Sequence record: PZ229304.1 | Strand: one strand, 5' to 3' | DNA from: a phage | Length of the DNA: 64,000 bases | In this document: in pieces, positions 890 to 14,405 of the stretch | Numbering within the stretch: position 1 is the stretch's first letter | Layout: every line of letters begins with the position of its first letter | Made by a program: the position numbers and the translations under genes | Notes under the pieces: generated by a model | What the model was told of the DNA's origin: nothing | Database searches by the model: none | The model's input: the letters and a program-made list of their open reading frames with translations, nothing else

Positions 890-2851
890 GTGATTTTAAC
901 ACGTCCAAATAGTGCCATTGCAGACATGGTAGAGTCTCGCTATAGAAAGCGTAGAAGTTTTGCAAGTGGTTTTACCTTAAGAGATGCTCGTGAAGCATTG
1001 CTCTTTGAAACTGACGGTAACTACTATCAGTGGAAAGGTTCTCTACCTAAAGTTGTACCTGCTAACTCTACTCCTACATCTACTGGAGGGATTTCAGATA
1101 CAGCTTGGAAAAATGTGGGTAATGCAGATGACATTGCTCAAATAGAATCAGAATTAGATGCTATTGAAGCTGAAATTGAAGATCTTAGAGAATCCATACC
1201 AGAAGCTGGTAAATCAGCTTACCAGATTGCCGTAGACAATGGTTTCCAAGGTACTGAGACACAGTGGTTGGCTTCTTTAAAAGGTGATCCAGGTGCTCCA
1301 TTAAAGCTACTAGGGACGCTATCTAATACCAACCAATTACCTACAACTGGAAACAATGCAGGGGATGCATGGATTGTAGGCGAGAATATGTATGCTTGGG
1401 ATGGTACTGCTTGGAGAAAAGTAAACTCACAGGGGCCAGAAGGTAAATCAGCTTATCAAGTTTGGCTTGCAGCAGGAAACCAAGGTACAGAACTAGACTA
1501 TCTTGCTGCGATTAAAGGTGATAAAGGGGAGCCTGGCCCAGAGGGGCCACAAGGTGTGCCAGGTAACAATGCTAATGGTTTTGATTACCAAGGTGCAGCT
1601 AATTCCGTTTCAGATCTTCCTTCTGCATCTCATGGAAACACATCTCAAGCATGGAGTGTTGGTACATATCTATACGTGTCAAACGGTGTAGAATGGATCA
1701 ATATGGGCGCTATAGTGGGGCCAAAAGGAGATAAAGGCGACAAAGGAGATAAGGGTAACACTGGTGATTCAGCTTATCAAGTTTGGTTAAATGCTGGTAA
1801 CGTTGGTACTATTGACGAATATATTGCCTCTCTGAAAGGAGAAAAAGGTGATAAGGGAGACAAGGGTGATCAAGGTGCGCAGGGTATACAAGGCTTGACG
1901 GGGCCAACTGGTGCAGGGTTGACCATTATTGACATTCTGACTAGCACTTCTGAACTGCCACAAACTGGGGAAGATGGTGATGGTTATCTGATCAATAGTG
2001 AACTTTGGGTCTGGTTGCAAGGAGCCACAGAGTGGACAAATGTTGGTCGTTTAGCTGGTACTCCAATCACTGCAAAAGGACACGTTGCGTCTGCAAGTGC
2101 GCTTCCTCCTACAGCCAATTACGGTGATGCTTATCTGACGGAAGATACAGGTCATCTTTACATTTACACCTATAATGAACAAACTCAAACTGCTGAATAT
2201 GTAGATATGGGTAGTTTGAAAGGTGATAAGGGTGAAAAAGGTGACGCTGGTACTAACGGTACAGACGGTGCAACTTGGATTGTTAAAACAACAGATCCAA
2301 TCTCTAGTGATGGTAAACAAGGTGATTATGCCTTTAATATCTCCACTGGCGAGGTGTTCTTAAAAACATCTGCAACTGTCTGGACTTCTCAAGGTACACT
2401 ACCTAGCATCACAGATGCACCTAGTGATGGTAAGACTTATGCTCGTAAAGATGGAGCATGGGAAGAACTCACTAGTTCTGTAGATGGTCAAGATATAGTT
2501 CCAACAAAAGTAACAACTAATTTTATAGAGGTTACAGCATATACCAACGATTCTGTTACAGGGGACTGGACACCTCCAGGAACACATAACATGAATGTGT
2601 TGAATCTTACTGGTAACTCTACTATAAAAGCATGGCCTGGTGTCGAAGATAGCACAAAACCTAAACCATTCTCTGCAATAGTTTATCTTATCCAAGATGC
2701 CACTGGAGGTCGTACTGTTACTTTAGATCCATCTTATAAAGTAATTGGTTCTAGTGATATTAATACAGATCCTAACGGAGTAACAATACTACAACTAACA
2801 TATTGTGGTGTTGGCAATTACGTGGATGCTATTGTTGCTAAACGCACATAA
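890..2851 (+). CDS. Tail fibre protein with collagen-like Gly-X-Y repeats
   Basis: 653-aa ORF, GTG start 10 nt after AAGGAG; runs such as GPKGDKGDKGDKGNTGDS and GEKGDKGDKGDQGAQGIQGLTGPTGAG; three copies of SAYQ(I/V)..AG(N)QGTE..(W/Y)LA(S)(L)KG and four LP.TG...W/Y repeats; N-terminal coiled coil (IESELDAIEAEIEDLRE). Confidence 0.7.
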   Translation: MILTRPNSAIADMVESRYRKRRSFASGFTLRDAREALLFETDGNYYQWKGSLPKVVPANSTPTSTGGISDTAWKNVGNADDIAQIESELDAIEAEIEDLRESIPEAGKSAYQIAVDNGFQGTETQWLASLKGDPGAPLKLLGTLSNTNQLPTTGNNAGDAWIVGENMYAWDGTAWRKVNSQGPEGKSAYQVWLAAGNQGTELDYLAAIKGDKGEPGPEGPQGVPGNNANGFDYQGAANSVSDLPSASHGNTSQAWSVGTYLYVSNGVEWINMGAIVGPKGDKGDKGDKGNTGDSAYQVWLNAGNVGTIDEYIASLKGEKGDKGDKGDQGAQGIQGLTGPTGAGLTIIDILTSTSELPQTGEDGDGYLINSELWVWLQGATEWTNVGRLAGTPITAKGHVASASALPPTANYGDAYLTEDTGHLYIYTYNEQTQTAEYVDMGSLKGDKGEKGDAGTNGTDGATWIVKTTDPISSDGKQGDYAFNISTGEVFLKTSATVWTSQGTLPSITDAPSDGKTYARKDGAWEELTSSVDGQDIVPTKVTTNFIEVTAYTNDSVTGDWTPPGTHNMNVLNLTGNSTIKAWPGVEDSTKPKPFSAIVYLIQDATGGRTVTLDPSYKVIGSSDINTDPNGVTILQLTYCGVGNYVDAIVAKRT

Positions 2852-2854
2852 TCA

Positions 2855-2879
2855 AAGCCCCTTCGGGGGCTTATTATTT
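2855..2879 (+). terminator. Rho-independent terminator-like hairpin (AAGCCCC-TTCG-GGGGCTT + T-rich)
   Basis: 7-bp stem, TTCG tetraloop, followed by TATTATTT; 4 nt after stop codon. Confidence 0.55.
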
Positions 2880-2890
2880 AAGGAGATTAA

Positions 2891-5710
2891 ATGTATCCTA
2901 TTCCTTTATTTATGTCAACAACATCAGCTTCAGTAGTAACAGCTACATCTATAACCACTTCCTCTATTGGTATTGCAATAGTTGGTAGTAAAAAGCAACT
3001 GACATACACAGTTTCACCGGAAGATGGTGCGTTATTTGATATAGATTTTTCATCTTCAGATAATACCAAAATGGTTATAGATAATAATGGTATGATGGAG
3101 TTTGTTGCTGAAGGTGGTTTTGATGCAATAATGACAGCTAAAAATAATTTAGGTGCTGTCTTAACTGATCAATCTGGTGGTTATGCTTCAGAATTAAGTG
3201 TGTACACTGAAAGTCTATCTGCTATGGATGTAGGCACTACTCAACAGTTGGTTGCTACAATCAGTCCAGAAGGTGCTAAAGACCTTCCAGATATGGTAAT
3301 TACGTACACCACAACAGATCCAGAAGTGGCTACTGTAAGCCCTACAGGATTAATAACTGCTCTTAAAGATGGTAATTGCCGTATAGGTTGTACTGCAACG
3401 TATCAAGGAACAGTTGTGGCCTCTGATAGTTCTTATTTAGGTGTTAATGCTATTCCTGTTATTTCTAATGTAACAGCCGTGGCAAACAGCTATGGAGACG
3501 TTCGTGTTGCTTGGGATGTAGCTGATCCGCTAGATGGTGATACTTATACTGTAGAAGTATTAGATTTAAGTAATAATAGTGTTCAGTGGACTACAACAAC
3601 CACGAATACTCATGCTTACTTTGATATCTCTGACTCTATTCCTCTTTATGGGTTTGCTCCAACATACCTTAAAATTAGCGTTAAGAGCACCAAAGCAGCA
3701 GCCGTTATCTTTAATAACTCAATAGCTACAGATGATTCATTCATTAAAGAAGTTATTGTCTTTGCTGGACAAGATAACGTAAATGCACACTTTACAGAAC
3801 TATCTGGTGCAAATAAAGCAGCAATGAGTAGCACAACAGCCCGTAATGCATATGCTACGCAACGTGGTTTAGCAAATGCTGAAGTTCTTCCGTTAAATAC
3901 AGCTTCTGGATCATCAGCAGCAGATAAATATGCTGACGATAAAGCTGGAACAGGAACACCAGACAACTACTGGTATGATCTGGATAACACAGCAGATGGG
4001 CCATGCTTAACTAACTTTATCACTAAAGTCACACCTTATGCAAGTAAGGTTAAAGCCATTATTTGGGGACAAGGTGAAAATGATGCTGTATCAGCATCTT
4101 CAACTGTTGCAGGTAGATACAGTAACACTACACGTTACCATGATGCTACGATAGCTATCTTTGATAAGATGCGTACAATAGTTCCTGCTTCTCAAGCAAA
4201 AATTGTTTGGCAGATCCTAGGACGTTCTTATTTATATGGTGTAGAAGTCAATGGTGTGGATTGGCAGAAATACAGAAATGTACAAAGAGCCATCTCTACG
4301 GCACGTGATGATGTTATCATTGGTTCTTGGGTAGATGGTGCTGAACGTTACAGTGGTTACGTTTATGAAGAAGGTATTGATGGTCGTATCCATTATATTT
4401 CTTCTGTATACCAGACAGCAGCTACAAAACTTGCTAAATCAGCAGCAGACGGTACAGACCTAACATCAACGTCACCTGTTTGGGTTGATATGGCTGTTCC
4501 AACTGGAGCAACAGCTACTTCCCAACCTAATCAAGATACAATTTTAGCATGGGATGCTCAAGGCTATAGTAAACACTACTTCCGTAATATTAACGTCTTA
4601 ACCGCATCTGTATTAACTGAACAAACGCTTAATACGAACAGTTATACGTTTACCTATGCAGATCAAGTAGCACAATATGGTTTTGCAGCAGGAACTACTA
4701 TATTTGATGTTGCATATTATGACGAAGCAAATGATGTGTTATCTCCTTTAGTACGTTTTAATGTTAACGTTACAGCAGGAACCGAAGAAGATAAACCTGT
4801 CGTGATGGACTATGATTTGACGCAAGAAACTCTCCCATCAGATGTTAAGGTTAATGGTGGGAACTCTTTTGCTCGTGCTTCTGGAGATAAACTTGTAGCC
4901 ACTAACACCTTGGTTGCTCCGTTGGAGTATGTTGGTACTACCCCTGTAGGTAGACGTGTAACAGCTAACACAGCTACACAAATTTTTGTCAACAACGCCT
5001 TAACAAGTGCAAGCCCGTGGGTAAAGACCAACTTAACTGTTGCAGCTTCATCTGATAACTCTCCGGCTGGAACTACTGCTAATGTATTCAAATTAACTCC
5101 GACTACAACCTCTGGTAGTCATATCTTAACTGCAACATATACTAACGCGTACAACATAAATGCCGGACGTAACTGGTCTGCCTCTGTTTTCTTGAAAGCG
5201 AACGGGATTACTAAGGCTAAACTAAGATTAAAAGCAGGAACTGAAGTTAATGAGGGTACTTTTGATTTAGCAGCAGGTACATTCACAGGAAGTGAAGCTA
5301 ATATTATATCTATGGGCAACGGTTGGTATCGTGCTATTCTGCATAAAACAGGGATAGCCAAACAGTCCTTCATAAGTTTTGAAATAATTGCCTTGGATGC
5401 AACTGGTGCAGAGATTTTCGCTGGAAATGGTACTAGTAACCTTGCAGTTTGGTTGCCACAGCTTGAAGGTGCTTCTACAGGAGAAACATCAAAAGCTGGA
5501 TCGCCTTATGTCTGCACATATCCTGGAAATTTAGGAGGAGTATCCTTCACTATACCAAGGAACGGACATACTGGTGTGGATGTTTACTATTCCAACGGAG
5601 ACGTTGTTCGTGACGTATTCTCTGGTACGGCATCTACTTGGACAATAAACTACTCCAGCTTGTACGATTGGGGATCAGTCTTTATTACAGGTTTGAAATA
5701 TTACGACTAA
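2891..5710 (+). CDS. Large tail fibre/tailspike protein with Ig-like (Big_2-type) repeats, FN3-like region and SGNH/SASA-type carbohydrate esterase-like region
   Basis: 939-aa ORF with AAGGAG RBS; Big_2-like segment (ATISPEGAKDLPDMVITYTTTDPEVATVSPTGLITALKDGNCRIGCTATYQG); AGQDNVN and WGQGENDA motifs resemble the GQSNM / QGEsD motifs of sialate-O-acetylesterase-type SGNH hydrolases (from memory of the family, not searched). Confidence 0.55.
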   Translation: MYPIPLFMSTTSASVVTATSITTSSIGIAIVGSKKQLTYTVSPEDGALFDIDFSSSDNTKMVIDNNGMMEFVAEGGFDAIMTAKNNLGAVLTDQSGGYASELSVYTESLSAMDVGTTQQLVATISPEGAKDLPDMVITYTTTDPEVATVSPTGLITALKDGNCRIGCTATYQGTVVASDSSYLGVNAIPVISNVTAVANSYGDVRVAWDVADPLDGDTYTVEVLDLSNNSVQWTTTTTNTHAYFDISDSIPLYGFAPTYLKISVKSTKAAAVIFNNSIATDDSFIKEVIVFAGQDNVNAHFTELSGANKAAMSSTTARNAYATQRGLANAEVLPLNTASGSSAADKYADDKAGTGTPDNYWYDLDNTADGPCLTNFITKVTPYASKVKAIIWGQGENDAVSASSTVAGRYSNTTRYHDATIAIFDKMRTIVPASQAKIVWQILGRSYLYGVEVNGVDWQKYRNVQRAISTARDDVIIGSWVDGAERYSGYVYEEGIDGRIHYISSVYQTAATKLAKSAADGTDLTSTSPVWVDMAVPTGATATSQPNQDTILAWDAQGYSKHYFRNINVLTASVLTEQTLNTNSYTFTYADQVAQYGFAAGTTIFDVAYYDEANDVLSPLVRFNVNVTAGTEEDKPVVMDYDLTQETLPSDVKVNGGNSFARASGDKLVATNTLVAPLEYVGTTPVGRRVTANTATQIFVNNALTSASPWVKTNLTVAASSDNSPAGTTANVFKLTPTTTSGSHILTATYTNAYNINAGRNWSASVFLKANGITKAKLRLKAGTEVNEGTFDLAAGTFTGSEANIISMGNGWYRAILHKTGIAKQSFISFEIIALDATGAEIFAGNGTSNLAVWLPQLEGASTGETSKAGSPYVCTYPGNLGGVSFTIPRNGHTGVDVYYSNGDVVRDVFSGTASTWTINYSSLYDWGSVFITGLKYYD

Positions 5711-5745: not shown

Positions 5746-6177
5746 TTAATCAGTGAAAATTACGCTTACATCTTCTTTAGAAAAGAGTTTATGATCTTCA
5801 CCTTTTGTCTCAAGAGTTTCATACAGGTTAAGAAGTTCTGAAACATCTTTCTCTACCAGTTTCTTCAATGTTGCAATTTTCTGTTTGCGATTCTTAATAC
5901 GTTCAGCTACAACCTTACGTTGGTATCCAGCAGTACGATAACCTGAGAAAGTTACACCAGTGAGACTTGCAGTTACAGGATCGTAATGACGTTCAATCTG
6001 AAATTTATTAAAAGGTACAGCGTCATCACGAATAATCTTCCCGCCATTACTTACTTGACGAAGACCAGTAACTTGTTCTAGTCGTGCCATAGAAATCTTT
6101 GGAGACAGACCAGAGTCCAAGTTCATACCATTGTTAATCAGTGCTTTCAGGGTGATTTTGCTGTTCAGTGTACTCAT
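5746..6177 (-). CDS. Hypothetical protein
   Basis: 143-aa ORF in the co-directional minus-strand array; overlaps the methyltransferase 3' end by 44 nt in another frame. Confidence 0.4.
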   Translation of the reverse strand: MSTLNSKITLKALINNGMNLDSGLSPKISMARLEQVTGLRQVSNGGKIIRDDAVPFNKFQIERHYDPVTASLTGVTFSGYRTAGYQRKVVAERIKNRKQKIATLKKLVEKDVSELLNLYETLETKGEDHKLFSKEDVSVIFTD

Positions 6178-6865
6178 TTAGTCGTTCCTCCGCTTGCTTA
6201 AAAATATTTACATCGGCTTCACAGCCTAAGTATTCTCTACCTGTTAAAAGTGCCGCAACTTGTGTTGTTGCACTTCCAGAGAAGAAGTCTAAGACTACAT
6301 CTCCTTCGTTGGTGTGTATATTAATAAGGTCACAAAACAAAGTCAAGTGTTTTTGTGTTGGATGAAAACGATCTGCTCCTTGATAGATAGGATACTCAAA
6401 CACACCCTTATGGTAGGAAGCATTGAAGGTTGGCTTAGAACCTTTAACACAAACAATAGCCATTTCTTTAGCGTTACTAAGGTAGTTAACACCACTGTTG
6501 ATGGGTACAGGGTTTGTTTTAATCCATTCGATAGTACGGAACATACGAAAACCAAGCGGTTCAAGGATTTCACGTAGCTCCTGGATCTTCCAGATATCAT
6601 ACCAAACTATGCAAGTACCACCTTTTCTAAGCACCCTGTAGGCTTCTTTGAATACTTCTTTAAAGTAAGGAATATCTACAACATCCCAATCACCAAAGTT
6701 GTAAGATACACGGAATCTATCCGTATCTTTTCCAGTAGGCTCTCCAGACTGAAAATTTGTGTCACGAGAAATAGCATATGGTGGGTCAGTAAGAATCAAA
6801 TCTACACTATTGCTTTCGAGGGTTTGCAAGTAGTTTAATGCGGTGTTGTTTACAAATTCGCTCAT
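6134..6865 (-). CDS. DNA methyltransferase, beta-class amino-methyltransferase (N6-adenine or N4-cytosine)
   Basis: DPPY motif (LILTDPPYAIS) near N-terminus and SAM-binding FxGxG-like motif (DFFSGSATT) near C-terminus, the IV-then-I order typical of beta-class MTases; AGGAGA RBS. Confidence 0.8.
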   Translation of the reverse strand: MSEFVNNTALNYLQTLESNSVDLILTDPPYAISRDTNFQSGEPTGKDTDRFRVSYNFGDWDVVDIPYFKEVFKEAYRVLRKGGTCIVWYDIWKIQELREILEPLGFRMFRTIEWIKTNPVPINSGVNYLSNAKEMAIVCVKGSKPTFNASYHKGVFEYPIYQGADRFHPTQKHLTLFCDLINIHTNEGDVVLDFFSGSATTQVAALLTGREYLGCEADVNIFKQAEERLNEYTEQQNHPESTD

Positions 6866-6883
6866 TATATCTCCTTCAAAGAA

Positions 6884-6905
6884 AAGGAGCCGTTAGGCTC
6901 CTTAT
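6884..6905 (-). terminator. Terminator hairpin after the SSB-like gene (AAGGAGCC-GTTA-GGCTCCTT), near-identical to the hairpin at 5716-5735
   Basis: 8-bp stem identical to that at 5716-5735; on the minus strand followed by TTTTCTTT. Confidence 0.5.
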
Positions 6906-6925
6906 ATTCACACAATATTTAACTA

Positions 6926-7873
6926 TTAGAAACAGTGCAGGAAGTTTCGACCATACTGCAAACCAATAGGAGCAAATGGGATATCATCATCGAAATCTTG
7001 AACAACAGGTTCTGGTTCTTTCGGTGCTGGCTCTTTCTTCTCTACTTTTTTAGTTTCTTTCTTAACTTCTTGTACTGGGGCAGACATTCCACGGATAGCA
7101 GCAGCTACTTTATCAGACAAAGCAAGAACTTCACGAGCAGCTTCAATAATCTCTTCTGCCGTTACAGTCTTACCTGTATGATCACGACAAGCGTTAAGAA
7201 TTGCGTGTCCAACTGAAGCACCAAGATCATAGTCAGTCACATCAACGCCACGATCTTTAGCAATTTCTGCTTTCAGAGTAACAGTTGCAGATTGTACCAC
7301 ACCAGCCAAGTCGAAAGCATCGCCTTTCACACCAGCACGTAGAAGCTCCAGAGCGCCGTTTACAGCGTGTCCTGTTTCAATCCCTACGGTATCACGTTTT
7401 TTGTAGTTAGGCTTGCTACCTTCGTTATTAGATGGCTTATTTCCACCTTTTGAAGAAGATTGTGCTTGCTGAACACCTTCTGTTGAAAGAATAGTGATTT
7501 TACCTTTAGAGGAATTGTAGTATGTTTTGCCATTCCATTCAGAAGGTTTAACATCCATAGTTAGTTCTACACCTTTTTCGATAGTAACCCACTTGTCACC
7601 ATCTTTAACTTGCAGGTTTTCATGTTCTGGATGCAGTTTAACTTCACCTAGGCTAACCCAAACACCTTTATCATCAGCACCAGCACCTTTCTCTTTAATA
7701 AGCAGAGATGCTTTGTGAGTTGATTCAATTTTCTTATCTGGCTGACCTGCAACCTTAATATAAGAGACTTTCATTTCATCAAACTTATCTAGTTTGACAT
7801 ATTCAACGATACCTTCAGCCCAGAATGCTTCTTTTTTAGTACGACGGTCGATTTCAGAATTAATTACTGGCAT
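6926..7873 (-). CDS. Putative ssDNA-binding protein with SSB-like acidic DDDIPF motif
   Basis: 315-aa ORF; Gly/Ser/Asn-rich linker, Lys/Glu/Pro-rich tail and the motif QDFDDDIPF (identical to the bacterial SSB C-terminal tip) located 14 aa before the stop; position directly upstream of the replication genes. Confidence 0.5.
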   Translation of the reverse strand: MPVINSEIDRRTKKEAFWAEGIVEYVKLDKFDEMKVSYIKVAGQPDKKIESTHKASLLIKEKGAGADDKGVWVSLGEVKLHPEHENLQVKDGDKWVTIEKGVELTMDVKPSEWNGKTYYNSSKGKITILSTEGVQQAQSSSKGGNKPSNNEGSKPNYKKRDTVGIETGHAVNGALELLRAGVKGDAFDLAGVVQSATVTLKAEIAKDRGVDVTDYDLGASVGHAILNACRDHTGKTVTAEEIIEAAREVLALSDKVAAAIRGMSAPVQEVKKETKKVEKKEPAPKEPEPVVQDFDDDIPFAPIGLQYGRNFLHCF

Positions 7874-7889
7874 AAATTCTCCTCTATAA

Positions 7890-8288
7890 TTACATTACTT
7901 TAACACAAAACTCTCGTAAAAGAGTAGCGTCAGTTTCTTCCAACAGGTATTTACCAAGACCAATACCAAATCCTATTTCACCACTTTCAAAATGGAGAAT
8001 TTGTATCTTTTCTCCACCAAGGTTGATTACTTTTGCTTTTCCAGGATTATCCAAAACATCTCGTATTGTATCCTGTAGTAGCATTAGTTCACGTTTTGTG
8101 ATAGTGGTTTCAGATATCTCTTTGTTTTCTACTCTCACTGTTAAACGATTGTATCCACCAAAGAGACATAGTATTTGAATAAAAAAGGTATTATCTTGAG
8201 GTTCAACATCTTTTTTAGTTAGCTCAAGACGATTAGTTTCTCTACTGTAGAACGTCTCGACTAAGATTTTAGAACGATTATCTGTCAT
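7890..8288 (-). CDS. Hypothetical protein
   Basis: 132-aa ORF in the minus-strand gene array. Confidence 0.4.
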   Translation of the reverse strand: MTDNRSKILVETFYSRETNRLELTKKDVEPQDNTFFIQILCLFGGYNRLTVRVENKEISETTITKRELMLLQDTIRDVLDNPGKAKVINLGGEKIQILHFESGEIGFGIGLGKYLLEETDATLLREFCVKVM

Positions 8289-8331: not shown

Positions 8332-8946
8332 TTAAATCTTAAATTCTTCGTTGTTAAATGAATCCAGTGTACGTACTTCTGGTTCTTTGGGAATGAAAAC
8401 GTCTTTTACAAAGCGGAACATAGGGAAACGTTCTGCCATTTTACGGACGTGTGCTTCTTTACCTGTGTATCGGTGATTAATAGTACAAATATTAGTTTTC
8501 AGTGCAAATTCAAAATCTGGATGATATACATAATTTTGACCATCCCAGTAACACAAGCAAATAGCTACATCAAAGTTCCATACGATTTCACTGCGTACAC
8601 CTTCTTCCATGATCATAAAGTTAAACTTAAGATCTTTATAGTATGCTTCAAATACCCATTTCAAATGTGGTAGTTCGGCATAAGTGTGTTCTGTTTGCTT
8701 AGTAAGTTGTTTAACATTACGTGCACCAACACCCAACATCAAAAACTTCTCTACTAGCACGAGTGTATTGTGGTTAGGCATACGCAAGTAAATGTCAATG
8801 TCTTGTGCAGGTTTCTCTAATCGCCAATCACGTACAGCGCCGCCAGCTACAATTGCAAACGGATCTACCAGTTGGCACATACGTAATACTTCTAAAGCTC
8901 GTACTTTTTGATCTTCAATATTCATATTTTCTCCTATCGTGTCCAC
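8332..8946 (-). CDS. Nucleotidyltransferase-like protein (poly(A) polymerase / CCA-adding enzyme head-domain-like)
   Basis: Motif IVAGGAVRDW.....DIDIY resembles the GGxVRD...DxD signature of tRNA nucleotidyltransferase/PAP head domains; only 204 aa so likely a minimal enzyme. Confidence 0.45.
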   Translation of the reverse strand: MDTIGENMNIEDQKVRALEVLRMCQLVDPFAIVAGGAVRDWRLEKPAQDIDIYLRMPNHNTLVLVEKFLMLGVGARNVKQLTKQTEHTYAELPHLKWVFEAYYKDLKFNFMIMEEGVRSEIVWNFDVAICLCYWDGQNYVYHPDFEFALKTNICTINHRYTGKEAHVRKMAERFPMFRFVKDVFIPKEPEVRTLDSFNNEEFKI

Positions 8947-9530
8947 TCTTTGTGTTGTTCTACATGCTCAAGCATTTCATTATATAGTGCTTTAAGATGT
9001 GGAACAACTCTTTCATCTTCAGTCTCAAAGAATTTTGTAAGCTGTTCTGCCTTAGCCTTCAACCAACAAAGATGCGCTTCAATTTCAGTATTAAAACGTC
9101 CCAGTGTTATAACACGTCCATCACGTTGAATATGGGCTTTATACTTTTTACGATCTTTTTCGTAACTACATCCTACCATAGTCCCATGAGATCTTTTACT
9201 TACTCTATAAGCTAAGAACTTGTTAAGATCTCCTGTTACTAAAAGACAGGTATCGGGAGAGTAAACTCTCCCTCCTATAATATCTTTATCAAGTTCTAAG
9301 TTTTCCCAGTTATCCCAAGTTTGCAACCAAGAGTAGAAATTGGAGAACAGTTTCCATTCTTCACAAACCGTCACCCCATTATAACAAGGATCACGTTCTT
9401 GTTGACAAGGGGAGTAACACCTCCCCAACATAGCCATCCATTTCATATAATGCGGCGTTAGTTTCTTACTACCAGGTAGCGTACTCTCGCCTTCCAAATC
9501 ATTAATACCTTCACCATATACGGTAAGCAT
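8934..9530 (-). CDS. Putative DNA-binding protein with AP2-like C-terminal region (homing-endonuclease-associated type)
   Basis: 198 aa; Cys/Trp-rich N-terminal half (W..ML.RC...C..ERDPCYNGVTVCEEW) and C-terminal YEKDRKKYKAHIQRDGRVITLGRFNTEIEA resembling AP2-type DNA-binding domains; weak call. Confidence 0.3.
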   Translation of the reverse strand: MLTVYGEGINDLEGESTLPGSKKLTPHYMKWMAMLGRCYSPCQQERDPCYNGVTVCEEWKLFSNFYSWLQTWDNWENLELDKDIIGGRVYSPDTCLLVTGDLNKFLAYRVSKRSHGTMVGCSYEKDRKKYKAHIQRDGRVITLGRFNTEIEAHLCWLKAKAEQLTKFFETEDERVVPHLKALYNEMLEHVEQHKEWTR

Positions 9531-9557: not shown

Positions 9558-12137
9558 TCAGTGACAAGACGCCCATGAGTTACCAACATCGTAACCAGCA
9601 GTTAGAGGTACATTAAGATTGTAATACTCACCAGCTTTATTAACAGCGATAGATGCTAATTCTCCAGCACGACTGTAGGCTGTAAACCAACCACCTTTAG
9701 GAGATTCATGTACGTTAGCCCAAATCTTGCCAGTACGTTTCTCTTCCTCTTCTTTCCAGGCGTTAACTTTATCCAAACATTCTTTATCAATTTTCTTTTG
9801 TTCTTCTGGATCATCAACTTGAGTCCAACCTAAAGATTCTTTAGAGAACCATTTAAAATGCACCAGATCACGAGTTACTTCAAGCTGCGCTTCATCGTGA
9901 TATGCAATCATTTGTTGAACGAATGACTTATTTTTCCAGTCATCAACAAAAAAGTCAACAGCTAATCCTTCTTCTTCGATAAGATCATCGTAGATAACCA
10001 TTGCTCTTTTTGCACAAATAACACCACCACTCTGGAACAGAGAGTTAAGTATTGCGTGTGCAGATCGTGTAGGTACTTTCCTACCATCAATACCAAGAAT
10101 GTATTTCTTACCTGTTTTAACCCAAAAATCATGCAGACGTTCTTTAAGAAGCGCAAGAGGTTTTGCAGCTTCCCAGAAAGCATCGTATACAAGCTGTCCT
10201 GTATACATATCACTACCAATGGTTTTTGCTACTTTTGCAGCTTGAGCACCATAAGTAATACCATACTTAACAGATTTAGCAGGGCTTCGTTCAAACTTAC
10301 GACCAATAGTATCAGAAATACGTCGAGCCATCATTGTATGAACATCATTAGGTTTTTCCAACAACAGAGCATTACAATATTCGTGTGGTTCCTGCTCGTA
10401 CCGCCAACAGTAGTGTGATTCTATTTTTGCCTCAAGAGAATCAAAGTCATAACCAATTTGGAAGTATTTTGGAACTTCTACACCAAATAAGTTACGCATT
10501 TCATATCCGTACAGAGATGTTACACGTGGGATATTTGCTACTAACCTATGTTTCATACGAGACGTAGCTGCATCACACGTTGCAGCAGGAGTTGGTATAC
10601 GACCATCAGCCCTTACTGCCGCCAGATAACCTTTATCGTAATCCTCTTCATCTTCTTCCCAATCAGCACCACCACCTAGAATAGAGTTTCTACGATGTTT
10701 ATACGTAAGATACTGCACAATCTGCGTAGCATAAGGAAACTTTTCACCTAGTGCTTCCAAGTTAGGACAAATATCCTTCTCTTGCCCTTTTGTAAAGGAA
10801 GGGTTAGTAAGCACTTTAACACCACGACCTTTAGCTTTAGCAATACGATCTCTTAGTTTCCATTCCAAAGTTTCTGGTGTGCACTCCAGATGATCACATC
10901 TATCCTGGCAGAAGTTAGATGCTAATGTTTGATCAACATAGTCACGAATAGCTTTCTCCATTTGTGCTTCATCTTTCTTAATCTTAGTGCCAGATTTAAG
11001 AGTGATATCTTTATCTTTATATTCAGATGGACTCCAACCTAAACCAACTAACCAATTTTTAATATGTGTCGTGTCGTCTAAAGTAGCAGGTACTGTAGGA
11101 TCACAAATAGGTTCTTCTGCTGGAATAGGGAGTTTAAACTCTTTACCTAATGCAAATAACCACCAACCATCTTCTTTTTGTACAAGTTCACCAGAATGTT
11201 TCTCTGCAAACTTTATCATGTTACTTGAAGGTTCACCATTCTTTTTAAACTGTAGTTTAGGTGGAATGAATGATTTCAAATAACCTTTAGTAGCAGGTTT
11301 AGGAGGTAGTACAGGTTCTGCCTCTAAACGACATGCTTCCATTCGAGCATCCAGATCACGAATATTATCTTCTGCTTGTTTCATATTGAAAGCAAAGCCA
11401 CGGTGCTCTTGACGTGTAATAATATCAGCTACACGTTGTTCTAAGTTAAATGGTTCAGACCACTTACTATAATCGCCCCACTCTTCCATCAAATAACGGA
11501 ACACTGCGGTGTTAGCTTTGTTATCGTAAATACAGTAATACAGCATATCTGCTGCAAATGTTCTAAATCTTTCAGTTTCAGGAATGTTTTTTCTGAAATC
11601 AATTTTAACATCCCCTCCAGCTTTCTTAGATAACTCTGCCAGACTATGACCACCGAAGCGATCAGGGTTTAGTGTCTTACTTAAGATCATAGTATCACAA
11701 ATTTCAATGTTACTATTACCCCAAGTATTGTACTTAATACTGTAGTTGAGTTTAAAAAATAATTTAATTGCCAGTAAGTCGAAGTTAATGATGTTGTGTC
11801 CAACTACTTTGGTAATTTTATAGTTTGAATTACCTTTAAATTTACCTGTTCCATTTACAAAATCAGGAAAATCTTTAAGAGGGAAATGGGTATATTCTAA
11901 ATGCTCATATTCCTCCAGTCGGTATTCATACTTTCCGTCAGTCTCAACATATGGACGACCATCGAAAAGATATTTATCACCATCATGGAAAGCAATAATC
12001 TCTCCAGTATCATGACTTTCGCACACAATACAGTGCATTGCAAAACTATCTTTTAAACGATATGGACTTGCCAAGTAATCTACACTTTCGTCATTAAGCA
12101 AGTTGTTACTTTCAATGTCGAAAGTAAAAGCTCCCAT
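9558..12137 (-). CDS. DNA polymerase, family A (T7 gp5-like) with 3'-5' exonuclease domain
   Basis: 859 aa; N-terminal FDIES exo motif; several segments recognisably similar to T7 DNA polymerase as recalled from memory (RFGGHSLAELSKKAGG; IDGRKVPTRSAHAILNSLFQSGG; C-terminal GNSWASCH). Confidence 0.9.
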   Translation of the reverse strand: MGAFTFDIESNNLLNDESVDYLASPYRLKDSFAMHCIVCESHDTGEIIAFHDGDKYLFDGRPYVETDGKYEYRLEEYEHLEYTHFPLKDFPDFVNGTGKFKGNSNYKITKVVGHNIINFDLLAIKLFFKLNYSIKYNTWGNSNIEICDTMILSKTLNPDRFGGHSLAELSKKAGGDVKIDFRKNIPETERFRTFAADMLYYCIYDNKANTAVFRYLMEEWGDYSKWSEPFNLEQRVADIITRQEHRGFAFNMKQAEDNIRDLDARMEACRLEAEPVLPPKPATKGYLKSFIPPKLQFKKNGEPSSNMIKFAEKHSGELVQKEDGWWLFALGKEFKLPIPAEEPICDPTVPATLDDTTHIKNWLVGLGWSPSEYKDKDITLKSGTKIKKDEAQMEKAIRDYVDQTLASNFCQDRCDHLECTPETLEWKLRDRIAKAKGRGVKVLTNPSFTKGQEKDICPNLEALGEKFPYATQIVQYLTYKHRRNSILGGGADWEEDEEDYDKGYLAAVRADGRIPTPAATCDAATSRMKHRLVANIPRVTSLYGYEMRNLFGVEVPKYFQIGYDFDSLEAKIESHYCWRYEQEPHEYCNALLLEKPNDVHTMMARRISDTIGRKFERSPAKSVKYGITYGAQAAKVAKTIGSDMYTGQLVYDAFWEAAKPLALLKERLHDFWVKTGKKYILGIDGRKVPTRSAHAILNSLFQSGGVICAKRAMVIYDDLIEEEGLAVDFFVDDWKNKSFVQQMIAYHDEAQLEVTRDLVHFKWFSKESLGWTQVDDPEEQKKIDKECLDKVNAWKEEEEKRTGKIWANVHESPKGGWFTAYSRAGELASIAVNKAGEYYNLNVPLTAGYDVGNSWASCH

Positions 12138-12632: not shown

Positions 12633-14405
12633 TTAATAAGAACCAGCAGGAATATTCTCTGGGTTACTTGTGTATTGATCGTAATCGTGAAGTGTAGCTG
12701 TTTTAATCTCATAGAAGAAACTACCTGCTGCACCAGTCTCTGAGAACTCACGGTTCTTTAGAATGTAGCAATATGTGCGGTTACGCTCCATAGGATCTTC
12801 AGCTTGTTTATCACGCTCCAGCGCAATTGTGATACCAGCACCTTTAGCAAGGAAGCTACTACCCATTGCATCATCTTCTACAATATGCTCATTACTATTG
12901 TTAGAAGACTTTTTAACGTGTGAAATTACAACAATGGTGATTGCGTACTCTTTCATAATGCGTTTGAGCCACGTCGCAAGTTCCTCTTGTTGTGACACGT
13001 CCATACCAGAAAGCAAATCAGAATAAGGGTCGATAACAAGAATGGTTACTCCGAAATAAATAATCATTTCCAGAACCTTCTCTTTAATCACATCTACGTT
13101 AGCTCCACGATCATCACAAACATAGAAACGTGGTGTTCCATCTTCCCGTTCGTAAAAATCACGAATCTTTTCTTCATTATCTTTTAAAATCTTTTCCTTC
13201 TCTTCCTTTGTCTTACGGTGAAGAGGGATATGCAAGAATGAAGACAGTAAGTTACGAGAATACTTCTTATACGTTGCCTCCAAAGATAAAATACCAAGAG
13301 TATGTTCTGGGTGTGCAAGAATAATGTGCTTCGTAATCTCGTTAACCAACAGTGTCTTACCAATACTTGTTTTTGCAAGTATAACAGTAATTTCTTCTTC
13401 TACCAAGCCTCCACCTAACATATTAGAAGCAACACGCATGAATGGAGGAAGTGTGATCATTTTAGCTTCCAAGCATTCCAGGGCTGCTTCATACAGTACG
13501 TTAGAAGCATAAACACCAGCAGGTGTGTACAGTTTAGCTTTGAAAAAGCGATCAATAAAATGATCAATTTTTCCTTCTACTAACGCCTGGTTAGGATCTT
13601 TAACATCCGTTAGCTCCATCACGTAAACTTTATTACGTGGTAAGATTTTAACACATTTCTCAACCGCTGCACGTCCAGCTTCATCATTATCCATACACAG
13701 AACAATCTTTTTAAATTGATCTAAGAATTTATAACGATGTTGAAGCTGTTTATGTAGAGATGTTTCGCCACAAGTACCAGATACTACAGCAGGAACAGGA
13801 TATTTACCACCCTTGTTATAATCTTTTAGCATCTGTGTTGCAGCCAGCATATCGTGTTCACCACCAACGATTAGAATAGTACCGCTGTGGTTACGATATT
13901 TAAACTCACCAAAAAGATCACAATCCTTTCCTGTTTCACCAATAGGATGCGAAAAATCTTTTGGATCAATACGTTGTTTATACCCAGCAATATTGTAATC
14001 TTTAGTTGTAGGGTATAGTGTTGAAATTACTTCGCCAGTGGCTTCATCGTACATATAGCGTACACCGAAAGGTTTAGAGATATCTTCACGAATACCACGA
14101 TAACCTTTTGGATTAGTTCCAGTGCTGGCTTTTAGCTTATCATGCACTTCTGGATTAAACTCACTACCCAAGATATCCTCCTCTTCAATTTCTTCGCCGT
14201 GTGCATTTAACCATTTTTGATCAGGGATAGTAAAGCCACAAGAAAAACAATGTGCGCCTCGATGGTCTTCATCGGCATCTAAGCCATATACCATTAAATT
14301 GTTTTGTGATCGATCACGTCCTCCTTTCATACAACGAGGACACCCAGTATGTCCTTCTTGACTTAGATCAATGTTATACCCATATTTATTTACAACATAA
14401 GACAC
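12633..14405 (-). CDS. Bifunctional primase-helicase (T7 gp4-like)
   Basis: 590 aa; N-terminal zinc-binding CPRC...HCFSCG primase finger, central primase region, C-terminal DnaB-type helicase with Walker A (AKTSIGKT); adjacent to family-A polymerase. Confidence 0.85.
   Translation of the reverse strand: MSYVVNKYGYNIDLSQEGHTGCPRCMKGGRDRSQNNLMVYGLDADEDHRGAHCFSCGFTIPDQKWLNAHGEEIEEEDILGSEFNPEVHDKLKASTGTNPKGYRGIREDISKPFGVRYMYDEATGEVISTLYPTTKDYNIAGYKQRIDPKDFSHPIGETGKDCDLFGEFKYRNHSGTILIVGGEHDMLAATQMLKDYNKGGKYPVPAVVSGTCGETSLHKQLQHRYKFLDQFKKIVLCMDNDEAGRAAVEKCVKILPRNKVYVMELTDVKDPNQALVEGKIDHFIDRFFKAKLYTPAGVYASNVLYEAALECLEAKMITLPPFMRVASNMLGGGLVEEEITVILAKTSIGKTLLVNEITKHIILAHPEHTLGILSLEATYKKYSRNLLSSFLHIPLHRKTKEEKEKILKDNEEKIRDFYEREDGTPRFYVCDDRGANVDVIKEKVLEMIIYFGVTILVIDPYSDLLSGMDVSQQEELATWLKRIMKEYAITIVVISHVKKSSNNSNEHIVEDDAMGSSFLAKGAGITIALERDKQAEDPMERNRTYCYILKNREFSETGAAGSFFYEIKTATLHDYDQYTSNPENIPAGSY

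What the first reader, a model, noticed from the sequence alone, without database searches (positions are those of the whole stretch)
6926..7873. SSB-like protein whose DDDIPF host-interaction motif is internal rather than C-terminal
The ORF ends ...VQDFDDDIPFAPIGLQYGRNFLHCF. DFDDDIPF is identical to the C-terminal tip of bacterial SSB, which must normally be the free C-terminus to dock onto partner proteins. Here 14 extra residues follow. Either the extension is real (a regulated or proteolytically unmasked tail), or there is a sequencing or frameshift issue, or the motif is used differently. The N-terminal region also does not look like a canonical E. coli-type OB fold.
Basis: seen in the sequence. 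Interest (0 to 1): 0.5.

Follow-up and report, generated by a model that had tools for sequence, protein, structure and literature searches.

The report
Capped SSB tail linked to homing endonuclease
A phage DNA-replication protein carries 15 extra, strongly conserved residues after a tail motif that normally has to be the very end of the protein; the same "cap" recurs on many unrelated phage replication proteins and is physically tied to a selfish endonuclease gene family that settles exactly at that spot.

Summary
ORF 6926-7873 (-) ends ...DFDDDIPF-APIGLQYGRNFLHCF. It is not an assembly error: 56 near-identical phi92-like phages match this region, and every sampled record keeps the full-length ORF.

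The 14-17-residue "cap" also follows the DDDIPF-type tip in at least six unrelated protein architectures from phages, prophages and plasmids of Gammaproteobacteria. These include true E. coli-type SSBs, lambdoid HK75 SSB and a DNA primase-helicase. It is never seen without the tip.

Its first seven residues are as constrained as the tip itself (pN 0.10 vs 0.07, synonymous sites saturated).

The window's cap class is coupled to a Zn-ribbon/HNH homing endonuclease (HEG) family. In relatives the HEG start codon lies inside the cap's Tyr-Gly codons. The window keeps only an 11-codon stub.

Starting from the HEG alone, 75 of 78 loci have an acidic ...PF-tipped gene immediately upstream, usually with 0 or 1 added residue.

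A published E. coli SSB+Gly mutant loses chi binding, so capped tails should not use the canonical pocket.

The cap's protein function is unknown, and nothing was found in the searchable literature. It is best described as a new variant of known kinds.

The parts
6926..7873 (-). SSB-like gene (315 aa), member of phrog_4477; last gene of the replication module before a terminator
   Evidence: ORF; phrog_4477, E=4e-101; operon context in phage Eryne; no Pfam, PDB or NCBIfam match
7484..7873 (-). N-terminal all-beta, OB-like domain (aa 1-130)
   Evidence: pLDDT about 86-96 per 10-residue block; weak matches dominated by RPA, CST, Cdc13 and phage SSB OB folds
7094..7387 (-). four-helix domain (aa 163-260); also occurs as a separate module in other phage SSB-like proteins
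   Evidence: helices 163-179, 186-208, 215-230, 239-260; pLDDT >90; hits covering only residues 159-251 in other phages
6998..7093 (-). Lys/Glu/Pro-rich disordered linker (aa 261-292)
6974..6997 (-). SSB-type acidic tip DFDDDIPF (aa 293-300), internal here
   Evidence: tip codons under strong purifying selection in capped alleles (pN 0.07)
6929..6973 (-). 15-residue cap APIGLQYGRNFLHCF (aa 301-315), of the class with Gly/Ala at position 8
   Evidence: 42 of 48 nt identical (cap plus stop) to the HEG-linked allele of phage Mt1B1_P17, inside a 66-nt identity island covering tip plus cap (59 of 66), with unalignable or unrelated flanks
6919..6954 (-). 11-codon stub (MVETSCTVSNS*) in the +1 frame, starting at the ATG inside the cap's Tyr-Gly codons. 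It matches the first six residues (MVETSC) of the homing endonuclease of Mt1B1_P17 (MVETSCIASKVCFKCG...)
   Evidence: no HEG of this family anywhere in the 64-kb window (part D)
6884..6903 (-). intrinsic-terminator-like hairpin (AAGGAGCC-TAAC-GGCTCCTT + T-run) 23 nt after the stop codon; the same hairpin type follows the gene in HEG-less relatives, with or without the cap
   Evidence: (L003, L004, L007, L011-L015)

Best explanation
ORF 6926-7873 is the phage's replication SSB. It has a divergent OB-like domain, a four-helix domain and a disordered acidic tail.

The 15 residues after DDDIPF are a genuine, selected and horizontally portable C-terminal "cap". The window's cap belongs to the class that is physically coupled to a family of free-standing Zn-ribbon/HNH homing endonuclease genes (HEGs). 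This family specialises on the 3' end of genes that encode the SSB-type tip. In relatives the HEG start codon sits inside the cap's Tyr-Gly codons, and the HEG body begins right after the capped gene's stop.

Shown:
- the anatomy;
- the coupling between cap and HEG;
- the target specificity of the HEG family;
- peptide-level selection on the cap;
- mosaic transfer of tip plus cap between unrelated genes.

Inferred:
(1) The HEG cuts naive alleles near the tip-coding end. Repair from a HEG-bearing genome then co-converts tip, cap and HEG. That is how this lineage obtained its cap, and the HEG body was later lost, leaving the stub.
(2) The altered sequence after the Phe codon protects the allele from re-cleavage.
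(3) At the protein level the cap removes the free Phe carboxylate, so canonical docking into host SSB-Ct pockets (chi, ExoI, RecQ, DnaG) is lost. The conserved cap residues (APIGLQY... and the hydrophobic [ILM]-[HY]-x-[ILMF] end) provide a replacement or modified interaction whose partner is unknown.
For: Real and conserved:
- 56 near-identical phages match the region, and all sampled records cover residues 1-315.
- 21 of 100 homologues carry the cap, some at only 30-40% body identity.

Portable:
- A DNA scan for P-F-A-P-x-G-L-Q-Y found 52 viral stretches.
- The carriers include E. coli-type SSBs (65-85% identical OB domain), phrog_44 SSBs, other SSB-like families and a DNA primase/helicase (phrog_239, E=3e-163).
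- Further carriers are HK75 SSB, 11 gammaproteobacterial genomes, and 169 of 5,426 complete E. coli genomes for the HK75-type allele.

Selection:
- In alleles found through body homology only, cap codons 1-7 have pS 0.88 and pN 0.10, against pN 0.07 for the tip.
- Identical peptides are encoded with six-fold codon switches for Arg and Ser.

HEG coupling:
- Overlapping HEG ORFs start at the ATG within TAT-GGN/GCN in L002, L005, L006, L087 and L093.
- They belong to endonuclease families phrog_2340 (E=9e-49) and phrog_1035 (E=7e-41).
- A HEG is present at 9 of 20 Gly/Ala-class caps against 2 of 39 other caps (Fisher p=5e-4).
- The same HEG plus cap sits behind the primase/helicase gene in Salmonella phage KE23.

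Target specificity:
- Starting from the HEG profile, 75 of 78 loci have an acidic ...PF-tipped ORF just upstream. 29 have no added residue, 40 have one and 6 have 4-15.

Mosaicism:
- Identity islands are confined to tip plus cap in four allele pairs.
- The nearest body relatives of capped proteins, up to 91-94% identical, lack the cap.

Premise:
- E. coli SSB+Gly loses chi binding (PMC3045619).
- T4 free-standing HEGs overlap upstream ORFs by 11-24 bp, and segG targets the SSB gene 32 (PMC2988022).
Against: Direction of events is not settled.
- In four allele pairs, homology between capped HEG+ and capped HEG- alleles ends exactly at the stop codon of the capped gene.
- This fits a HEG body landing behind a pre-existing cap as well as it fits HEG loss.
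- 37 of 39 caps of the other class have no HEG, so the cap can persist, and perhaps arose, independently of HEGs.

Other weak points:
- In the 27-nt overlap neither frame is clearly better conserved (0.36 vs 0.31 identity).
- No cleavage, homing or binding activity was tested.
- The tip stays as conserved in capped alleles as in uncapped ones. That is unexpected if the cap simply inactivates it.
- The OB-fold assignment rests on weak structural matches.
Confidence: 0.6

Rival explanations
1. The cap is an autonomous functional peptide of phage SSBs that predates the HEGs. It would be a host- or phage-partner motif that works together with the tip. The HEG family merely targets or hitch-hikes on this conserved gene end, and the window allele never carried a HEG.
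For: - 37 of 39 non-Gly/Ala-class caps lack any HEG.
- Peptide-level purifying selection is strong, with saturated synonymous sites.
- The cap is never found without the tip.
- Homology between HEG+ and HEG- capped alleles breaks exactly at the stop codon in four pairs.
- Cap class follows host order: Enterobacterales carriers have ..H-A-I-[HY]-A-[IL] types, and Vibrio, Alteromonas and Aeromonas relatives have ..P-A-L-L-x-C-M types.
Against: - Within single genera the cap appears together with the HEG: ukendt against Mt1B1_P17, and KPP-1 against KE23.
- The HEG needs the ATG inside the cap to include its first CxxC, so cap and HEG are not independent units.
- The window's cap is 88% identical in DNA to a HEG-linked allele while its flanks are unrelated.
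- HEG-associated tips in other phage groups also carry add-ons of 1-15 residues.
Confidence: 0.25
2. The cap is a pro-peptide. It masks the tip until a host or phage protease cleaves after ...IPF and regenerates a functional free SSB-Ct.
For: - The tip is as conserved in capped as in uncapped alleles (pN 0.07; tails), as expected if it is eventually used as a true C-terminus.
- The cap is predicted to be disordered and accessible.
- A conserved Phe-Ala-Pro junction could be a recognition site.
Against: - No protease is shared by the very different carrier phages, and no known cytoplasmic protease with this specificity was identified here.
- HEG-linked one-residue add-ons (IPFN in 27 of the 60 loci examined) show that blocked tips are tolerated without any long recognition sequence.
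- No experimental data exist.
Confidence: 0.12
3. The cap is a selectively neutral scar of a HEG insertion or of stop-codon loss, with no protein-level function.
For: - HEG-adjacent tips in environmental phages carry heterogeneous add-ons (N, S, R, GPCWQ, RHRHWLS, ANPYGCGLWRSV) that look like junction by-products.
- Codons 8-15 of the cap are only moderately constrained (pN 0.42).
Against: - APIGLQY is kept across saturated synonymous divergence (pS 0.88, pN 0.10).
- Identical peptides are encoded by multi-step codon switches.
- Length is constant at 14-17 residues, and no nonsense-truncated caps were seen among 61 distinct alleles. All sampled rows of the 56 near-identical genomes are full length.
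Confidence: 0.06
4. Sequencing or assembly error, or a frameshift, at the 3' end of the gene.
For: Most homologues (78 of 100) end exactly at IPF.
Against: - The sequence was obtained independently in dozens of genomes.
- The cap is conserved in distant relatives and in unrelated proteins.
- The codon substitution pattern shows that it is translated and selected.
Confidence: 0.01

Closest known systems
E. coli SSB C-terminal tip (SSB-Ct, DDDIPF), the hub for chi, ExoI, RecQ, PriA and DnaG
   Same: An identical DFDDDIPF octapeptide at the end of a disordered linker on an ssDNA-binding protein. The carriers are phages and plasmids of hosts whose own SSB ends in DDDIPF.
   Different: The tip is internal and followed by 14-17 conserved residues. 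Published work shows that one extra residue abolishes chi binding (PMC3045619) and that the terminal carboxylate is contacted in DnaG and related pockets (PMC5872125). The window protein's DNA-binding domain is not the PF00436 SSB type.
T7 gp2.5 (SSB) and gp4 (primase-helicase) acidic C-terminal tails ending in Phe
   Same: The SSB and the primase-helicase of one phage group carry the same kind of acidic ...PF tail. In T7 the tail binds the phage DNA polymerase (my knowledge; also summarised in bioRxiv 10.64898/2026.02.22.705581).
   Different: In T7 the Phe is the last residue, and deleting it blocks polymerase binding. Here both protein types can carry the cap after the Phe. No sequence or fold match to gp2.5 was found.
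T4 free-standing homing endonucleases (SegG next to and targeting the SSB gene 32; segC, segF, mobA, mobC and mobE overlapping the upstream ORF)
   Same: A free-standing HEG adjacent to an essential replication gene. The HEG ORF overlaps the 3' end of the upstream gene (28 nt in rV5, against 11-24 bp in T4). The layout is suggestive of translational coupling and co-conversion of flanks (PMC2988022).
   Different: - The nuclease family differs (Zn-ribbon plus HNH or EndoVII-like, not the GIY-YIG of SegG).
- Here a whole family is dedicated to one short, widely shared protein motif end. That lets it move between unrelated genes: several SSB families and a primase-helicase.
- It changes the C-terminus of the host protein by 1-17 residues.
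Intein- or intron-borne homing endonucleases
   Same: A selfish endonuclease inserted in an essential, conserved gene region. The element must keep the host protein functional.
   Different: No splicing element is present. The added residues stay in the predicted protein, and selection appears to act on the added peptide itself.

Membership tests
Bacterial/E. coli-type SSB (Pfam PF00436 SSB family) | SSB-type OB domain detectable by the family profile | tested here: not met
   No Pfam hit at E<=1, no NCBIfam hit, no PDB sequence hit. Other carriers of the cap do meet it, with 65-85% identity to the E. coli SSB OB domain.
Bacterial/E. coli-type SSB (Pfam PF00436 SSB family) | Acidic tip ...DDDIPF as the free C-terminus | tested here: not met
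   The motif is present (aa 293-300), but 15 residues follow it.
Bacterial/E. coli-type SSB (Pfam PF00436 SSB family) | ssDNA binding and homotetramer formation | not testable with these tools
   Only an OB-like predicted fold with weak matches to RPA, CST and phage SSB OB domains.
Phage SSB-like family phrog_4477 (OB-like domain + four-helix domain + acidic tail) | Full-length profile match | tested here: met
   phrog_4477, E=3.9e-101; 100 homologues with the same architecture.
Phage SSB-like family phrog_4477 (OB-like domain + four-helix domain + acidic tail) | Position in the replication module | tested here: met
   Same strand as, and downstream of, primase/helicase and DNA polymerase; syntenic in Phapecoctavirus, Seunavirus and rV5.
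Capped SSB-Ct module (tip + [AS]P[IVL]GL[QMP]Y + 7-10 residues), defined here | Follows an acidic ...[IVT]PF tip directly, and a stop codon comes 14-17 codons later | tested here: met
   Scans for APIGLQY alone found no detached copy.
Capped SSB-Ct module (tip + [AS]P[IVL]GL[QMP]Y + 7-10 residues), defined here | Peptide-level purifying selection | tested here: met
   pS 0.88 and pN 0.10 for codons 1-7 in the unbiased set; codon switches.
Free-standing Zn-ribbon/HNH homing endonuclease specialised on SSB-tip gene ends (phrog_2340 and phrog_1035 relatives) | Intact HEG ORF (CxxC...CxxC ribbon plus HNH motif) at or overlapping the 3' end of the tip-encoding gene | tested here: not met
   The window has only an 11-codon stub. 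A profile search of all window ORFs gave no hit at E<=1. Relatives L002, L005, L006, L020, L025, L073, L085, L087, L093 and L095 do have it.
Free-standing Zn-ribbon/HNH homing endonuclease specialised on SSB-tip gene ends (phrog_2340 and phrog_1035 relatives) | Site-specific cleavage of HEG-less alleles and super-Mendelian inheritance | not testable with these tools
   Inferred only, from the patchy distribution, the identity islands and the 75-of-78 association with the target.

The most novel reading that the evidence does not exclude
The 14-17-residue cap is a previously unrecognised functional peptide module. It would re-programme the universal SSB-Ct hub motif on mobile-element replication proteins (SSBs and primase-helicases of phages, prophages and phage-plasmids of Gammaproteobacteria). 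It might switch the tail from host-interactome docking to a private or gated interaction, or make it a protease-released pro-tail. A dedicated family of homing endonucleases that recognise the tip-coding gene end would disseminate it between unrelated genes.
Probability: 0.35. Interest if true: 0.8.

Novelty: new variant of a known kind. Interest (0 to 1): 0.64.

Why it matters
The SSB C-terminal tip is a textbook example of a motif that must be a free C-terminus, and it is being pursued as an antibiotic target (PMC5872125).

This work finds the tip routinely buried under a conserved cap in phage, prophage and plasmid SSBs. That includes prophage SSBs in about 3% of complete E. coli genomes. 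The cap is as constrained as the tip itself. Together these points imply an unrecognised mode of using or regulating the motif during infection.

It bears on several areas:
- how phages interface with or evade the host SSB interactome;
- SSB-sensing defence systems;
- the choice of SSB partners in recombineering.

Independently, a homing endonuclease family that targets a short protein-motif-coding gene end, and can therefore hop between unrelated genes while editing their C-termini, is a clear case of a selfish element reshaping an essential interaction motif. It is directly testable with existing coliphages: phi92-like phages, Mt1B1_P17, rV5 and HK75.

Tried and rejected
- Assembly error or frameshift: rejected.
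- Conservation caused by an RNA or DNA element (terminator, RBS): rejected. Variation is concentrated at synonymous positions and includes six-fold codon switches.
- Conservation of the second half of the cap imposed by the overlapping HEG frame: not supported either way. Identity is 0.36 in the SSB frame and 0.31 in the HEG frame, and most caps have no HEG.
- Beta-clamp-binding motif, ssrA-like degron, FtsZ C-terminal-peptide similarity, CaaX-like box: considered from memory against the cap consensus. Spacing and residues do not fit consistently across cap variants, so none is claimed.
- Cap occurring on its own: two scans for APIGLQY without the tip gave only noise plus one tip carrying a 1-nt indel.
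- Literature: the strings APIGLQY, PIGLQY, IPFAPIGL and DDDIPFA gave no paper. Searches on HEG plus SSB plus C-terminal extension gave nothing relevant. HK620 SSB ends NDYPPF without a cap. The DARNA preprint does not address tails beyond T7 deltaF232.
- The exhaustive profile search returned only 56 cluster representatives, many of them fragments. This is a lower bound and not a usable prevalence estimate.
- One script contained hand-typed codons and printed nothing. It was discarded and redone from the loci.

Full report
**1. Observation**

ORF 6926-7873 on the minus strand encodes 315 aa ending ...VQDFDDDIPF-APIGLQYGRNFLHCF*. The tip DFDDDIPF is residues 293-300 (nt 6974-6997).

The window is a phi92-like Escherichia myovirus (Justusliebigvirus). 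56 phage records match 6700-8100 at >=95% identity. Every tblastn row sampled from them covers residues 1-315. The extension is therefore not a sequencing or assembly artefact.

**2. The protein**

It has no Pfam, NCBIfam or PDB sequence relatives. It belongs to phrog_4477 ("unknown function", E=4e-101).

It is the last gene of the minus-strand replication module, in the order primase/helicase 12633-14405, DNA polymerase 9558-12137..., this gene, terminator 6884-6903.

An AlphaFold model built on 34 homologues (mean pLDDT 83) gives these regions:
- a confident all-beta domain, residues 1-130;
- a disordered linker;
- a confident four-helix domain, residues 163-260;
- a disordered Lys/Glu/Pro-rich tail that includes the tip and the extension (pLDDT <50).

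**3. Orthologues**

Of 100 homologues, 78 end exactly at ...IPF, one has a single extra residue, and 21 carry an extension with the consensus [AS]-P-[IVL]-G-L-[QPM]-Y-x4-[IL]-[HY]-[AC]-[ILFV]. Capped proteins are scattered across the family. For most, the closest relatives by body sequence (up to 91-94% identical) are uncapped. This implies many gains or losses.

**4. The cap is a portable module**

A DNA-pattern scan of IMG/VR for P-F-A-P-x-G-L-Q-Y gave 52 stretches. All sit behind an acidic ...[IVT]PF tip, 14-16 codons before a stop.

The carriers include:
- many true E. coli-type SSBs, with 65-85% identity to the E. coli OB domain;
- phrog_44-type small SSBs;
- other SSB-like proteins;
- a 691-aa DNA primase/helicase (phrog_239, E=3e-163; Pfam DnaB_C) ending ...DDDTPF-APIGLQYAKHAIYVI.

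Closely related Klebsiella phages have the same helicase either capped or ending at DDDTPF.

A scan of one genome per bacterial species found 11 true capped tails, all in Gammaproteobacteria, plus 13 chance matches (about 17 expected).

Named carriers include lambdoid coliphages HK75 and mEpX2, Salmonella phage g341c, many Vibrio and Aeromonas phages, and phage-plasmid-sized replicons. The HK75-type capped ssb end occurs in 169 of 5,426 complete E. coli genomes.

An exhaustive profile search recovered 56 cluster representatives and widened the known variants, for example APVTLPFPRHAIHAI, APVGLMYNNALIHCI and APIGLQEGRNFLHMI.

Scans for APIGLQY without the tip found no detached copy.

**5. Selection**

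Among 61 distinct cap alleles, identical peptides are encoded by very different codons. For example, RSILNCM is encoded as CGC TCA ATT CTG AAT TGC ATG or as AGA AGT ATA TTG AAT TGC ATG.

In eight alleles found through body homology only, which removes ascertainment on the cap:

| Region | pS | pN |
|---|---|---|
| Tip (6 codons) | about 1 (saturated) | 0.07 |
| Cap codons 1-7 | 0.88 | 0.10 |
| Cap codons 8-15 | 0.74 | 0.42 |

These values are; the larger but pattern-biased sets agree. The first half of the cap is therefore as constrained as the tip. This excludes a neutral scar or an RNA/DNA-level constraint.

**6. The homing endonuclease link**

In Mt1B1_P17, rV5 (gp208, annotated "endonuclease"), ABPH49 and others, an ORF in the +1 frame starts at the ATG inside the cap's Tyr-Gly/Ala codons and runs on past the stop of the capped gene.

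These ORFs belong to phage endonuclease families (phrog_2340, E=9e-49; phrog_1035, E=7e-41). They share a CxxC...CxxC zinc ribbon, and most have a C-terminal HNH motif.

The window retains only an 11-codon stub, MVETSCTVSNS* (nt 6919-6954), followed by the terminator. No HEG of this family occurs anywhere in the window.

The same HEG and cap, overlapping in the same way, sit behind the primase/helicase gene of Salmonella phage KE23 and behind canonical SSBs (L073, L085, L087, and Sodalis L095).

HEG presence by tail type:

| Tail type | With HEG | Total |
|---|---|---|
| Cap with Gly/Ala at position 8 (window's class) | 9 | 20 |
| Other caps | 2 | 39 |
| Uncapped tips | 2 | 18 |

The difference between the first two rows gives Fisher p=5e-4.

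**7. Target specificity of the HEG family**

This test started from the HEG alone, using a profile of 8 sequences; the search found 316 relatives, of which the best 80 were kept. Of those, 75 of 78 analysable loci have an ORF ending in an acidic ...PF tip immediately upstream. 29 have no added residue, 40 have one (mostly Asn) and 6 have 4-15.

In these environmental phages a conserved cassette start, TAGAAYGGGTCTATAATGG, abuts the Phe codon or one extra Asn codon. The family is therefore specialised on the 3' end of genes encoding the SSB-type tip, and it commonly alters the C-terminus.

**8. Mosaicism**

Between the window and Mt1B1_P17, identity is 59 of 66 nt over exactly tip plus cap. It is 27 of 60 upstream and 16 of 48 downstream.

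Three further pairs behave the same way: 47-49 of 60 nt identical in tip plus cap, and 6-15 of 45 after the stop. They are L064/rV5 (unrelated SSB bodies), P8734/KE23 (helicase genes) and SSE121/Mt1B1_P17.

This is the footprint of conversion-type transfer of the tail end.

**9. Interpretation**

Shown:
- the cap is real, selected, portable, restricted to tip-bearing replication proteins of gammaproteobacterial mobile elements, and coupled to a tip-specific HEG family;
- the window carries a capped, HEG-less allele with a HEG start stub.

Inferred:
- the lineage obtained tip plus cap by HEG-associated gene conversion and then lost the HEG body;
- the changed sequence after the Phe codon confers immunity to cleavage;
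- canonical docking into SSB-Ct pockets is lost. E. coli SSB+Gly has no detectable chi binding and is impaired in vivo (PMC3045619), and the terminal carboxylate is contacted in DnaG and related pockets (PMC5872125);
- the conserved cap residues supply a modified interaction.

Not settled:
- The direction of events. Breakpoints exactly at the stop codon and the many HEG-less caps fit a pre-existing cap equally well.
- Whether the cap is cleaved off.
- What the cap binds.
- Why the tip stays conserved under a cap.

**10. Comparison with known systems**

- The tail resembles E. coli SSB-Ct and the paired acidic ...F tails of T7 gp2.5 and gp4, but it is capped.
- The HEG arrangement resembles T4 free-standing HEGs. 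SegG lies beside and targets the SSB gene 32, and T4 HEG ORFs overlap upstream genes by 11-24 bp (PMC2988022). Here, however, the nuclease family differs, the target is a short shared motif end that allows moves between unrelated genes, and the host protein's C-terminus is changed.
- String and topic searches of the held literature found no description of the cap or of this HEG specialisation.

**11. Verdict**

The feature is a new variant of known kinds: the acidic tail of a phage SSB, and a free-standing HEG. Its peptide function is unexplained but clearly under selection.

Interest is moderately high, for three reasons. It contradicts the expectation that the tip must be terminal. It is widespread in well-known coliphages and prophages. 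It is immediately testable.

Noticed in passing
window 8934-9530 (-): A 198-aa HNH endonuclease (phrog_953, E=9e-74) lies between the nucleotidyltransferase gene and the DNA polymerase gene. It is absent at this position in the close relative Eryne, so it is probably a second, unrelated free-standing homing endonuclease in the replication module.
   Followed up: partly
L005 (rV5) 2600-3223; L025: The rV5-type endonuclease shares the N-terminal zinc ribbon, and the overlap with the cap, with the HNH-type HEGs. Its C-terminal nuclease part is different (phrog_1035, "endonuclease VII"). This suggests the zinc ribbon is the module that targets the tip-coding site and that nuclease domains have been swapped.
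   Followed up: partly
L131-L197 (environmental phage contigs), just after the SSB Phe codon: A conserved cassette start, TAGAAYGGGTCTATAATGG (stop codon plus a -10-like TATAAT box), precedes many HEGs. In 40 of 75 loci exactly one residue, mostly Asn, is added to the SSB tip (IPFN).
   Followed up: partly
L091/L092/L093 (Klebsiella phages P8734 and KPP-1; Salmonella phage KE23): The DNA primase/helicase of Vequintavirinae phages ends in an SSB-like acidic tip (DDDTPF), as in T7 gp4. It shows the same polymorphism as the SSB gene: capped, uncapped, or capped with a HEG.
   Followed up: yes
L080 (IMG/VR contig end, 634-aa ORF): A portal-like N-terminal sequence is fused in frame to an SSB-type Gln-rich linker, tip and cap. 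It may be a chimeric assembly or a recombination product.
   Followed up: no
L227: The cap APIGLQYPALLMCM is preceded by ...RYSI instead of ...DDIPF, consistent with a 1-nt indel in the tip codons (pseudogene or sequencing error).
   Followed up: no
phage records MG065639, MG065645, MG065656, MG065689: Four records named "Campylobacter phage" are 98.6% identical to these E. coli phi92-like phages over the query region. The host labels look doubtful.
   Followed up: no
L096, L102, L112 (Acidobacteria genomes): Proteins ending ...LPDLRPFAPLGLQYSICIEGIFPS matched the DNA pattern. There is no acidic tip and the context is different, so this was judged a chance resemblance to the cap.
   Followed up: partly
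L198 (phage HK75) 2087-2593: The lambdoid HK75 SSB (E. coli-type OB domain) carries the cap variant APVTLPFPRHAIHAI. It lies between the Erf-like annealase and the Abc2 anti-RecBCD gene, with no HEG. The same 3' end is present in 169 of 5,426 complete E. coli genomes.
   Followed up: partly
window 6134-6865 (-) and 5746-6177 (-): An adenine DNA methyltransferase (NCBIfam PRK13699-like, E=1e-23) and an ORF of unknown function (phrog_20244) follow the SSB terminator. Phapecoctavirus relatives lack both at this position, so they form an inserted cassette downstream of the SSB gene.
   Followed up: partly
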